Source: Eledone cirrhosa
Lineage: Eukaryota
Reading direction: 5' to 3'
Assembly: GCA_964016885.1 (NCBI GenBank)
Contig: OZ024740.1
Location: 73,346,001 to 73,410,000, forward strand
Length of the DNA stretch: 64,000 nucleotides
Position 1 is the first letter of the stretch, and each line of letters opens with the position of its first letter. The position numbers and the translations under genes are program-made. Below are positions 19,352-24,000 of the stretch, piece by piece. A model generated the notes under the pieces. That model did not search any database. It was given only the letters and a program-made list of their open reading frames with translations, and was not told where the DNA came from.

Positions 19352-20086
19352 TATTGTTATACTTTCGAGAGGGTCATGTTGCTAATAAGAAACACACGCA
19401 CCAGTTGCTTTGACTTCAATTTATTATAATAAATTTATAAATTTAGGAATTTATAAATTTACGGTTGGTTGGTTGGTTGGTTCCACAACCAGATGGTTGT
19501 TTATATATTGTCAAAGTTCTTTCGTCACACATTCTGTGACCTCTTCAGTGACTGGGGATTCTTTTCTTTGTTTTTTGTGCCTCTCCTTTGTTCTGTCCTA
19601 CGCCATCTTGTTTTTGTGTGTGTGTTGTGTGCTTAGTTTGCGCATGTATTACATCCGGGTGTCTGTGTGTGTTTATATTCGTTTATTTATTTGTTTATTT
19701 ACATGTTACTGGTTGGTTGTTTGTTCTATGTGCGTGTGTGTTTTCATTTTGTCCTTAATTGTAAGTTGTGATGTTGCTGTTCCACTCATGTTTTCTATTT
19801 AATTTTGGTTGTAATTCATTTATGTTTTTTATTGCCTCTGTGATTTGTCTAAACATTGCGTCTTTTCTGTGTGTAGATTCTATTTTTATTTCTATGTTCT
19901 CTAATTTACCCTTATGTTCTATTTTAGCATGTTGGTAGAGTACAGATGATTCTTTACTATCTTGAAGGTCTCGCCAGTGTTCATTTATCCGTTCCCCTAT
20001 ACTACGAGCTGTCTCACCTATGTACACTATATTTTTATCTCTACATTTTCCTTCAGTACATCTTATGATATATACTACATTTCTAG
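19352..20086 (-). mobile_element. Penelope-like element 3' fragment: GIY-YIG endonuclease C-terminus, HHR and tail
   Basis: YIGETARSIGERINEH...RQITEAI..ELQPKLNRKHEW; HHR at 19510-19552. Confidence 0.88.
19510..19552 (-). ncRNA. Type I hammerhead ribozyme (inverted copy of 22426-22468)
   Basis: Reverse complement reads GTCA-CTGAAGA-G-GTCACA gaatg TGTGAC-GAAA-GAAC-TT-TGAC. Confidence 0.8.
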
Positions 20087-21321
20087 GTGATGGTTGTGTA
20101 TATACGTGTGTGTGTGTGTGTGTGTGTGTGTGTGTGTGTGTGTGTGTGTGTGTGTGTGTGTGTGTGTGTGTGTGTGTGCGCGCGTGTGTGTGTGTGTGTG
20201 TGTGTGTGTGTGTGTGTGTGTGTGTGTGTGTGTGTGTGTGTGTGTGTGTGTGTGTGTGTGTGTGTGTGTGTGTGTGTGTGTGTTTGTGTGTGTTTGTGTG
20301 GCGATAAAAATATATATTAGTTTCACGCTTAATATAGTAGGAAAAGAGTCTTAATGTTTCAGACGCAAGTCCTTTAGCATAAAATAGAATGAGAAATTAA
20401 AGAAGAAATAGAAAGATAGGAGAAAGTGACCAAGGGTAAAAACGGAAAAAACTTCTTCGCGAAAAAAGCAGGTCTCTTAACTGGGTGGGAAGGGAAAAGA
20501 ATATTTAGAGAGTGAGGGTGAGAGAGTTAGTAAAAGAAAAGAGTTTGTGAGTCGTGAGATATTAGTATATACATATTATATATATATATATTATAGCATG
20601 TAGAAAAAGAGTCAGGACCCCGACGGCTGAGCTCCGGCCATTTCGAGTGTATCGAGTAGTCTGGTGCGATATGGTCCACCTGGTATCTTACCACGCTTTC
20701 TTTGTTATATAGCATATATATATGTATATATATATATATATATATATATATATATATATATATATATATATTAGAAAGTGAGGGTTTTTTTACAAAATGA
20801 AAAATAACCGAGGTGTCCTACACGAGTGAAAGTATAAAGAAAAAAAGATGAAATCGAAAATGCAACTGGAGTCTTATTTTAAAAAATATATATATATTTA
20901 TTTGGTTCCTTTACCGGTTTCGCAGTTCTTCTGCTTTTCAAAAGTAGAGTTGAGATGGAGGGTTTGTGGTTTTTCTCACATCCAAATAAATATGTATATT
21001 TTTTTAAAAATAAGACTCCAGTTGCATTTTCGATTTCATCTTTTTTTTTTATATATATATATATATATATATAGTGACGAAAAATAAGTCAATTGTATGA
21101 ACCCATAATCCTTTATATATATATATGTGTGTGTGTGTGTATATATATGTATATATATATATATATATATATATATATATATATATATATATATATATAT
21201 ATATATATATATATATATATATATATATATATTGTTATACTTTGGGAGAGTCATGTTGCTAATAGGAAACACACACACCAGTTGCTTTGACTTCAATTTA
21301 TTATAATAAATTTATAAATTT
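20086..21321 (-). repeat. Inverted duplicate of 22526-23643
   Basis: Module-by-module reverse-complement match, including the positions of the TA tracts. Confidence 0.9.
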
Positions 21322-22618
21322 TGCTGTGGAGAAATGCGTAGAAATGATCAGTCAGAGCAATGTTGAATTCCGTGGGATTGATACCAGTGAGCTGGGACTC
21401 CTACTTAAACTTACCTATAGTAATAATTATCTAGACACATATGACCTTAGCAACCTGTTCCCTACAAGACCAGCAAGAGGCAGACCACCTACCATTACCT
21501 AAATGGCCAAGAAAACCCACACAGATAGATGGAACGGGTGGACCAGAGCCATACGGACACCCGAAAACCACGATGAACTGAAGAAAATGATTGCACATGC
21601 GGTAGGGGCCAAATGGGAAAAAATGGTAAATAATGACACAAATGGGACCTGCCCCTTGTATAGGAGCAAATTTTGGAATAGAATAGAAAGAACTAGGAAT
21701 AAGGCTAATAGAATAAACTCATGGTATTATAGCAATAAATACCAGTGTAATGTTCATCGATACAACCCCTAGAGGTGAATTAACTTACAAATTTAGAAGG
21801 GCCCTAGATAAACATAAACTCAATATTAAGATAGTAGAAAGACCAGGTACCTCCATAAAAACACTTATTAGCAAGACATACCCTATTCAAAGACCTCCCT
21901 GTATAGATAAGAAATGTATAATCTGTAAATTAAGCCCCCATATTAACTGTAAAACTAGAAATGTAGTATATAGCATAAGATGTACTGAAGGACAATGTAG
22001 AGATAAAAATATAGTGTAAATAGGTGAGACAGCTCGTAGTATACGATAGTAAAGAATCATCTGTACTCTACCAACATGCTAAAATAGAACATAAGGGTAA
22101 ATTAGAGAACATAGAAAAGACGCAATGTTTAGACAAATCACAGAGGCAATAAACATAAAAGAATTACAACCAAAATTAAATAGAAAACATGAGTGGAACA
22201 GCAACATCACAACTTACAATTAAGGACAAAACGAAAACACACACGCACATAGAACAAACAACCAACCAGTAACATGTAAATAAACAAATAAATAAACGAA
22301 TATAAACACACACAGACACCCGGATGTAACACATGCGCAAACTAAGCACACAACACACACACAAAAACAAGATGGCGTAGGACAGAACAAAGGAGAGGCA
22401 CAAAAAACAAAGAAAAGAATCCCCAGTCACTGAAGAGGTCACAGAATGTGTGACGAAAGAACTTTGACAATATATAAACAACCATCTGGTTGTGGAACCA
22501 ACCAACCGTAAATTTATAAATTTCTAAATTTATAAATTTATTATAATAAATTGAAGTCAAAGCAACTGGTGTGTGTGTTTCTTATTAGCAACATGACTCT
22601 CCCAAAGTATAACAATAT
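21322..22618 (+). mobile_element. Internally deleted Penelope-like element (RT-flank remnants, Cys-rich linker, GIY-YIG, HHR, tail)
   Basis: PLYRSKFWNR..MFIDTTPRGEL..IKIVERPG..CIDKKCIIC..CKTRNVVYSIRC..(Y)IGETARS. Confidence 0.85.
22426..22468 (+). ncRNA. Type I hammerhead ribozyme in the PLE 3' repeat; degenerate relative at ~44587-44630 minus
   Basis: GTCA-CTGAAGA-G-GTCACA gaatg TGTGAC-GAAA-GAAC-TT-TGAC, sense to GIY-YIG and ~200 nt after its stop. Confidence 0.82.
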
Positions 22619-22921
22619 ATATATATATATATATATATATATATATATATATATATATATATATATATACATATATATACACACACACATATATATATAT
22701 ATATATATATATATATATATATATATATATATATATATATAGCAGTAAATAAAGGATTATGGGTTCATACAATTGACTTATTTTTCGTCACTATATATAT
22801 ATATATATATATATAAAGAAAAAAAGATGAAATCGAAAATGCAACTGGAGTCTTATTTTTTTTAAAATATACATATTTATTTGGATGTGAGAAAAACCAC
22901 AAACCCTCCATCTCAACTCTA

Positions 22922-22957
22922 CTTTTGAAAAGCAGAAGAACTGCGAAACCGGTAAAG
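22922..22957 (+). ncRNA. Variant-core minimal hammerhead (mirror at ~20909-20945 minus) inside a small palindromic cassette 22815-23030
   Basis: CTT-TTGAAAA-GCAG aagaa CTGC-GAAA-CCGG-TA-AAG. Confidence 0.6.
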
Positions 22958-23629
22958 GAGCCAAATAAATATATATATTTTTTTAAAAATAAGACTCCAG
23001 TTGCATTTTCGATTTCATCTTTTTTTCTTTATACTTTCACTCGTGTAGGACACCTCGGTTATTTTTCATTTTGTAAAAAAACCCTCACTTTCTAATATAT
23101 ATATATATATATATATATATATATATATATATATATATATATATATATATATATATATATATATATATATATATATATATATATATATATATGCTATATA
23201 ACAAAGAAAGCGTGGTAAGATACCAGGTGGACCATATCGCACCAGACTACTCGATACACTCGAAATAGCCGGAGCTCAGCCGTCGGGGTCCTGACTCTTT
23301 TCCTACATGCTATAATATATATATATATAATATGTATATACTAATATCTCACGACTCACAAACTCTTTTCTTTTACTAACTCTCTCACCCTCACTCTCTA
23401 AATATTCTTTTCCCTTCCCACCCAGTTAAGAGACCTGCTTTTTTCGCGAAGAAGTTTTTTCCGTTTTTACCCTTGGTCACTTTCTCCTATCTTTCTATTT
23501 CTTCTTTAATTTCTCATTCTATTTTATGCTAAAGGACTTGCGTCTGAAACATTAAGACTCTTTTCCTACTATATTAAGCGTGAAACTAATATATATCTTT
23601 ATCGCCACACACACACACACACGTATATA

Positions 23630-24000
23630 CACAACCACCACCTTCAGCCCTCCCCGCTCGGACATCCCGCCTCACTCTCCCCACTCCACCCGCCACCACC
23701 CCTACACGCCCCACATTCTTCCACCACTTGTTTATCTTCATGTTTATTTTTATTTTTATTTGTACCCCTTCCACCGTTTTCCTCCCTTTACTCCCCCTTT
23801 TTTTTCTATATGTCTCTCCACCACTCCCCCACACACCCTCGGAACTCTCTTCCCACCCACCTTTCGCCTGAAGAAGGGCTTATGCCCGAAATGCCGTCAC
23901 CCCCCACCCCCCACCCCACACACACACTATCAAGAGCGTGAAACTAATAAACCTTTGTTTGTACTGCCTCTCTGTTTTGTTCCCGTTCCATTTTTCACTA
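23630..24000 (+). mobile_element. Solo 3' repeat of the second PLE family (matches 30700-31120); HHR at 23868-23898
   Basis: CTGAAGA-A-GGGC ttat GCCC-GAAA-TGCCG-TC; tail agagcgtgaaactaataaacc also at ~19105-19172. Confidence 0.8.

What the first reader, a model, noticed from the sequence alone, without database searches (positions are those of the whole stretch)
19352..23643. 2 kb inverted, circularly permuted copy of a PLE plus its downstream flank
Read on the minus strand, 21321 to 19352 equals 22526-23643 joined to 21955-22618. That is a circular permutation of the 1.7 kb segment 21955-23643 with ~90 nt terminal redundancy, placed inverted just upstream of the source. It carries four unrelated TA-separated cassettes along. 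PLEs are known to have inverted upstream pLTRs, but capture of over 1 kb of foreign cassettes with permutation suggests a circular or template-jumped read-through intermediate. Caveat: the plus copy has two GIY-YIG deletions (~22045, ~22115) absent from the inverted copy, so these arose later or another template contributed.
Basis: partly seen in the sequence, partly recalled or inferred. Interest (0 to 1): 0.72.

Follow-up and report, generated by a model that had tools for sequence, protein, structure and literature searches.

The report
Penelope insertion with fold-back flank copy
An ordinary two-armed Penelope-like jumping-gene insertion carries, between its arms, a reversed 1.2-kb copy of its own end plus the neighbouring DNA, likely made when a loose DNA end folded back and copied its own strand, an unusually long example of a repair scar already known from human LINE-1.

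Summary
The alignment is real, but it is not a circular permutation. 19293-22615 is one head-to-head unit of a TA-targeted Penelope-like family with over 10,000 ends in this genome. The minus arm (19293-20086) carries a ~58-nt 3' tail that the plus copy lacks, and it lacks the plus copy's deletions, so it was not copied from that locus. One long-tail plus one short arm is the family norm (89 of 95 units). The oddity is only 20087-21321: an inverted copy of 22526-23643 (plus arm's last 90 nt, its TA tract, four unrelated dispersed repeats), 11 of 819 sites different, with 4-nt and 2-nt microhomologies and no donor elsewhere. Best reading: DNA-templated fold-back of the plus arm's cDNA end onto its own strand, then end-joining (about 0.85 overall; 0.6 during integration, 0.25 at a later break). 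Two of 156 sister loci show the same geometry (35 and 248 nt). Read support was inconclusive. Known for L1 as foldback or templated insertions, usually under 250 bp; this scan has reported the same thing before on other DNA, in this and other genomes.

The parts
19278..19292 (.). left (TA)n target tract
   Evidence: sequence, junction print
19293..20086 (-). arm B: long-tail arm of the PLE (family positions r3165-3952: GIY-YIG, 3' UTR, tail)
   Evidence: GIY-YIG PF01541 26.5 bits over cut-off 22.6
   Evidence: 10,305 exact long ends genome-wide
20085..20086 (.). junction 1 (insert end at 23643 to arm B 5' end), 2-nt microhomology, unique in the genome
20087..21321 (-). templated insert: inverted copy of 22526-23643 (arm A's last 90 nt, TA tract, four repeats, first 20 nt of a fifth)
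   Evidence: 11 substitutions in 819 aligned non-microsatellite sites
20104..20303 (.). (CA)n tract, 200 nt in the insert against 18 nt in the source
21318..21321 (.). junction 2 (arm A 5' end to insert start), 4-nt microhomology inside an AT-rich palindrome; inferred fold-back point
21318..22615 (+). arm A: short arm of the PLE (r1881-3891), 5'-truncated inside the RT, with deletions of about 645, 35 and 25 nt
   Evidence: the 35-nt deletion junction is unique in the genome
22426..22468 (+). hammerhead-like motif in the 3' UTR; predicted cut near 22464, not at either junction
   Evidence: read by eye; stems I and II in the MFE fold; no Rfam hammerhead hit at E<=5
22526..23643 (+). template of the insert
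22616..22741 (.). right (TA)n target tract; its internal CA interruption is reproduced in the insert
22743..23605 (.). four unrelated dispersed repeats between TA tracts (22743-22792, 22816-23093, 23192-23315, 23336-23605): the target flank
   Evidence: found in 4, 29, 54 and 22 of 156 other loci; whole train only at the two window places
23624..23996 (+). fifth dispersed repeat, continuous across 23643, so 23643/23644 is no insertion boundary

Best explanation
This is one two-armed Penelope-like insertion in a TA repeat whose middle 1.2 kb is an inverted copy of the plus arm's end and its flank, likely made by a fold-back of DNA during integration. Steps: (1) inferred, from the family pattern and the PAc biochemistry: both strands of the TA tract were cut and each 3' end primed reverse transcription at one of two fixed RNA sites, giving a long-tail arm (B) and a short arm (A). 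(2) Inferred: the free 3' end of A's cDNA annealed through 4 nt to its own strand at 22526 and was extended away from the break, through A's first 90 nt, the TA tract and about 1.03 kb of flank (exposed by resection or strand displacement). (3) Inferred: that end was joined through 2 nt to B's cDNA end. Shown: the layout, the two templates, the microhomologies, uniqueness of the junction and two sister cases. The polymerase (host end-joining or the element's RT) and the direction of synthesis are not shown.
For: Long plus short head-to-head arms in 89 of 95 units; in 36 of 74 simple units the short arm reaches further 5' than the long arm, so arms are not copies of each other. A, B and the insert share a two-variant haplotype found at 4 places genome-wide, 3 of them here; the fourth is about 6-7% diverged and no donor. 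The insert is continuous across element end, TA tract and flank and keeps the tract's interruption, so its template was this locus after A was joined to the flank. Junction 1 is unique; no second copy of the flank train among 40 scored of 4471 candidates. Divergence insert-source 11 of 819 and A-B 12 of 663 do not differ (Fisher p=0.53; p=0.18 without a homopolymer cluster). Same geometry at L132 (35 nt from 1.13 kb downstream; exact sequence at 2 places only) and L062 (248 nt from 2.1 kb downstream; probe at 2 places only).
Against: The insert shares two derived alleles with A that B lacks, within 89 nt. If A and B came from one RNA molecule, that needs a later copying, gene conversion between insert and A, or two related RNA copies; this is the main support for the later-break rival. 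Microhomologies of 2-4 nt are near chance. Sequence alone cannot fix the direction of synthesis. The junction scan for sister cases was noisy (23 of 178 windows hit, control 95 of 890), and the two cases were picked by hand. No read or contig shown bridges either junction.
Confidence: 0.6

Rival explanations
1. Same DNA fold-back, but later: a normal B+A unit existed first, a break near the arm junction was then repaired by snap-back of A's strand and end-joining.
For: Two A-specific derived alleles are shared by the insert and absent from B; insert-source divergence (1.3%) is nominally below A-B (1.8%); A carries three internal deletions.
Against: The divergence difference is not significant; per-lineage change in B (5 of 663) equals that of insert and source (about 0.7%); L1 studies see such inserts in new insertions; fillers at the arm junction are common in this family (35 of 74 simple units).
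Confidence: 0.25
2. Two steps through RNA: A inserted first, a read-through transcript from A into the flank was made, and a second element (B) landed at A's 5' end and jumped onto that transcript.
For: The insert is in the orientation a sense read-through RNA would give; Nam et al. report one co-inserted local pre-mRNA; Arkhipova et al. propose read-through plus template jumps for Penelope inserts.
Against: Needs a second hit exactly at A's 5' end by a copy with the same near-private haplotype that mimics the normal long plus short layout; 23643 is inside a repeat, not at an evident RNA end, and the predicted ribozyme cut is about 60 nt from the other junction.
Confidence: 0.08
3. Assembly artefact (false inverted duplication or merged haplotypes).
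For: Microsatellite-rich region; reads gave no bridging piece.
Against: Copies differ by substitutions, an 8-nt indel and tract lengths; both junctions are new sequence with microhomology; no gap nearby; sister cases exist.
Confidence: 0.04
4. One reading: a circle of 21955-23643 was reverse transcribed just over once and inserted inverted.
For: The order of pieces fits on a coarse view.
Against: B has a tail absent from the supposed circle, lacks A's deletions, and differs from A where the insert agrees with A.
Confidence: 0.02

Closest known systems
L1 foldback inversion / templated insertion at the integration junction (Nam et al. 2023, PMC10191854; bioRxiv 10.1101/2024.08.27.596794; PMC11702581; passages read)
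   Same: Inverted copy of nearby target DNA placed at the 5' junction of a retro-insertion; rare (3-4 of about 1,200 events by the percentages in Nam; 22 instances in the preprint; 3 in PMC11702581).
   Different: There 52-220 bp, or under 250 bp and within 15 bp of the site; here about 1.1 kb, it includes the element's own 3' end, and it sits between two Penelope arms.
Canonical EN+ Penelope-like insertion: inverted 5'-truncated copy and one-sided tail (Craig et al. 2021, PMC8557442; Arkhipova et al. 2013, PMC3846280; passages read)
   Same: Head-to-head arms, tail at one end only, C-terminal GIY-YIG, TA target.
   Different: Tail about 58-60 nt rather than 30-40; the passages read describe host DNA captured between pLTRs but not an inverted copy of the insertion's own flank.
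PAc (Poseidon, Anolis) in vitro: both strands cut and extended, two internal RT start sites (Frangieh et al. 2024, PMC11167929; main text parts 1-2 of 4 read)
   Same: Two fixed 3' ends, one per arm, are what that chemistry predicts.
   Different: Other clade and host; joining of the arms was not studied there.
Fold-back templated inverted duplications at yeast double-strand breaks (PMC11724301; abstract only)
   Same: Microhomology-primed fold-back at one end, end-joining at the other.
   Different: 5-34 bp, no retroelement involved.

Membership tests
EN+ Penelope-like element | RT domain in a single long ORF | tested here: inconclusive
   1121-aa open frame in full-length copy L025 with RT-type motifs by eye; RVT_1 E=1.2e-4, 22 bits, below the cut-off 29.6; no PDB hit
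EN+ Penelope-like element | C-terminal GIY-YIG endonuclease | tested here: met
   PF01541 26.5 bits, cut-off 22.6, in arm B; not detected in the L025 copy
EN+ Penelope-like element | Inverted 5'-truncated copy head to head with the main copy | tested here: met
   89 of 95 units; 52 of 80 position-ordered loci
EN+ Penelope-like element | 3' tail on one arm only | tested here: met
   ends at r3894 in 73 of 74 short arms and r3952 in 66 of 74 long arms
EN+ Penelope-like element | Hammerhead motif near the 3' end | tested here: inconclusive
   motif by eye, stems in fold; no Rfam hammerhead hit; my regex scan printed no hit
Neptune/Nematis-type clade | Placement in an RT phylogeny | not tested
   Only a CX4CxxC linker and CCHH-like residues seen by eye, as described; no reference set was at hand
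Circularly permuted copy from a circle | All pieces derive from the one source segment | tested here: not met
   tail and undeleted sequence in arm B are absent from the source
Circularly permuted copy from a circle | The two redundant ends are copies of one sequence | tested here: not met
   1 of 89 against 4 of 89 differences
Foldback / templated insertion at a retro-junction | Template is local, in cis, inverted | tested here: met
Foldback / templated insertion at a retro-junction | Microhomology at both joints | tested here: met
   4 nt and 2 nt; short enough to be chance
Foldback / templated insertion at a retro-junction | Formed during integration | tested here: inconclusive
   divergences compatible but two alleles shared by insert and A only
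Foldback / templated insertion at a retro-junction | Dependence on a given polymerase | not testable with these tools
   needs genetics or an in vitro assay

The most novel reading that the evidence does not exclude
The Penelope RT itself snaps its cDNA end back onto its own strand and copies over a kilobase of DNA by strand displacement as a built-in way of closing two-ended insertions, so a family with over 10,000 insertions has left on the order of a hundred local inverted duplications of host DNA, some of kilobase size.
Probability: 0.15. Interest if true: 0.6.

Novelty: new variant of a known kind. Interest (0 to 1): 0.32.

Why it matters
How Penelope-like elements finish an insertion is still open. 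This locus works as an internal control: a true DNA fold-back runs through the element's end into the flank, while ordinary arms stop at two fixed points and neither is a copy of the other, which favours separate RNA priming of both arms followed by end-joining. It also shows that such insertions can duplicate a kilobase of neighbouring DNA. The mechanism class is known from L1, and the scan has met it several times, so the gain is modest.

Tried and rejected
Reads: contigs of runs X1-X4 on 19150-20150 and X1, X4, X5, X17 on 21190-21700 were swamped by family copies; the listed pieces were short and none shown bridged a junction, with most rows not shown; inconclusive. No RNA holder listed. 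Rfam gave only microsatellite-type matches below gathering scores. Unmasked self-BLAST was flooded by TA repeats. Candidate sister cases rejected: L049 (terminal inverted repeats of a 73-match repeat), L060 (tandem array with an inverted unit, judged by eye to be another element), L081 (gap is diverged family sequence), L039, L100, L111 (gaps hold other repeats), L101, L103. Possible donor L181 rejected. The automatic 5'-junction scan did not exceed its control. The Atlas search gave no result. Searches for a Penelope-specific description of inverted flank capture listed none by title or abstract start; most subscription papers are not in the library, and I saw no supplements (the figures S9-S10 of PMC11702581 may show closer cases).

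Full report
Observation. A masked self-BLAST and a global alignment confirm the pieces. On the minus strand 21321-20087 follows 22526-23643, and 20086-19354 follows 21955-22615. The plus copy lacks 35 nt after 22042 and 25 nt after 22112. The window's only gap is 8 kb away. The similarity is far beyond chance.

The family. A search of the own genome (3.0 Gb, host not identified) gave many copies. One full-length copy, L025, has a 3,952-nt body and a 1121-aa open frame with a weak RT match; arm B scores above the GIY-YIG cut-off. Exact patterns count 12,026 short 3' ends and 10,305 long 3' ends, each followed by TA. I mapped 156 fetched loci plus the window on L025: 76 chosen as best matches and 80 from the first 100 places listed (75 taken in order, 5 picked because a second match lay near). 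Of 95 head-to-head units 89 have one long and one short arm, 3 two long, 3 two short (the window counts once as long plus short and once as short plus short, and a few units belong to a related family). In 74 simple two-arm units the short arm ends at r3894 in 73 and the long arm at r3952 in 66; the short arm reaches more than 20 nt further 5' in 36, the long arm in 24. This matches the one-sided tail and inverted copy described for Penelope-like elements (PMC8557442 and PMC3846280, passages) and the two RT start sites and two-strand extension shown in vitro (PMC11167929, parts 1-2 of 4).

The window in that light. Arm B (19293-20086, minus, r3165-3952) is the long arm and arm A (21318-22615, plus, r1881-3891, with a deletion of about 645 nt) the short arm. 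B cannot be a copy of the A locus, which has no tail and has deletions; A cannot be a copy of B, which is shorter. They are tied together all the same: three derived alleles are shared, one seen in 0 of 219 other arms, and a two-variant pattern matches 4 places in the genome, 3 of them B, A and the insert; the fourth differs at 21 of 283 and 21 of 345 sites. Gene conversion between arms could also produce such sharing. A and B differ at 12 of 663 sites, close to the median arm-arm value of 1.85% in 47 units. So the circular permutation falls away, and what needs explaining is the insert 20087-21321.

The insert. It copies 22526-23643 without a break across A's end, the TA tract (with its CA interruption) and the flank, with 11 substitutions in 819 sites. 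The four cassettes and the repeat that starts at 23624 are dispersed repeats, found in 4, 29, 54, 22 and 8 of 156 loci, and the last one is continuous across 23643. The whole train was found only at the two window places (40 of 4471 candidates scored), and junction 1 and A's 35-nt deletion junction are each unique at up to one mismatch. The template was therefore this locus, after A had been joined to the flank; a sister chromatid without the insertion could not supply A's end. Junction 2 has 4 nt and junction 1 has 2 nt of microhomology. A hammerhead-like motif read by eye at 22426-22468 would cut near 22464, away from both junctions (Rfam did not list it).

Mechanism (inferred). The bottom strand is A's cDNA joined to the flank that primed it. 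Its 3' end can pair through the 4 nt with the same strand at 22526; extension from there gives exactly the insert, running away from the break; pairing through 2 nt with B's cDNA end closes the gap. The bottom strand is also the one that 5' resection would leave single-stranded (general knowledge). The reverse direction, B's end invading at 23643, needs a continuous top strand across a fresh nick and is less simple, but is not excluded.

Sister cases. At L132 the two arms are joined through 35 nt copied in reverse from 1.13 kb downstream of the short arm, with a short re-copied stretch; the exact sequence stands at those 2 places only, and 34 other places have one mismatch. At L062 the 5' end of a long arm is joined to a 248-nt inverted copy (7 differences) of DNA 2.1 kb downstream; a probe from it matches those 2 places only. 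That is 2 of 156 loci, picked by hand from a scan that did not beat its control; L049 and others were rejected. The rate, about 1%, is rough. The window's insert is the longest gap of the 116 measured.

Against my reading. The insert shares two derived alleles with A that B lacks, within 89 nt; only 1 other arm of those mapped has both. This fits a copy made some time after insertion, or conversion between insert and A, or two related RNA copies as templates. Divergences do not decide it (p=0.53 and 0.18). I give 0.6 to integration and 0.25 to a later break. Reads were uninformative, so the structure rests on the assembly and on internal evidence. The CA expansion is unexplained.

Known and new. 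L1 insertions show foldback inversions of 52-220 bp (PMC10191854, passage), templated insertions mostly under 250 bp (10.1101/2024.08.27.596794, passages) and cDNA self-annealing on resected ends (PMC11702581, passages); yeast breaks show the same fold-back then end-joining (PMC11724301, abstract). Four paper searches listed no Penelope-specific account; PMC13282606 (passages) adds nothing on this. Earlier notes of this scan (unchecked) describe the same kind of insert in other genomes and in this one; my reading was written before I saw them, and they led me to two of the papers. Verdict: real, a long variant of a known repair scar, interest 0.32.

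Noticed in passing
window 20104-20303 against 23606-23623: CA tract eleven times longer in the copy than in the source; slippage during copying or later change is open.
   Followed up: partly
L132:4834-4911 (G000:C1 near 14.069 Mb): Arm junction with a 35-nt inverted copy of flank from 1.13 kb away plus a short re-copied stretch, like iterated priming.
   Followed up: yes
L062:3434-3693 and 7459-7706 (G000:C9 near 44.75 Mb): 248-nt inverted copy of unique flank at the 5' end of a single long arm, joined to the other side through TA.
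   Followed up: yes
L025:3782-7733 (G000:C3 near 285.44 Mb): Full-length family copy with a 1121-aa open frame, an Asn/Thr/His-rich N-terminal stretch and an unusually long region (about 115 aa by eye) between RT motifs A and B'.
   Followed up: partly
L042, L075, L086, L094, L180: Partial tandems in which the long end r3952 is joined to the element's start, the expected donor form.
   Followed up: no
L060:5748-8922: 472-bp tandem array with one inverted unit and a hammerhead-like motif by eye, next to a family arm; retrozyme-like.
   Followed up: no
L068:2597-4527, L070:2261-3590, L100:8231-9901: Further kilobase inverted repeats of other sequence beside family copies.
   Followed up: no
window 18156-18377 and 18669-18889: 222-nt direct repeat, 98.6% identical, of another TA-flanked repeat; partial tandem.
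   Followed up: no
window 43615-43891 and 44149-44425: 277-nt inverted repeat, 97.8% identical, around a 257-nt spacer.
   Followed up: no
window 4757-8215 (-) and 33764-38413 (+): Two LINE-like elements with endonuclease and RT-like frames (by eye).
   Followed up: no
window 60267-61308: Tandem array of about 43/86-bp units, about 95% identical.
   Followed up: no
window 41154-41199: 46-nt solo 3' tail of the same Penelope family.
   Followed up: no
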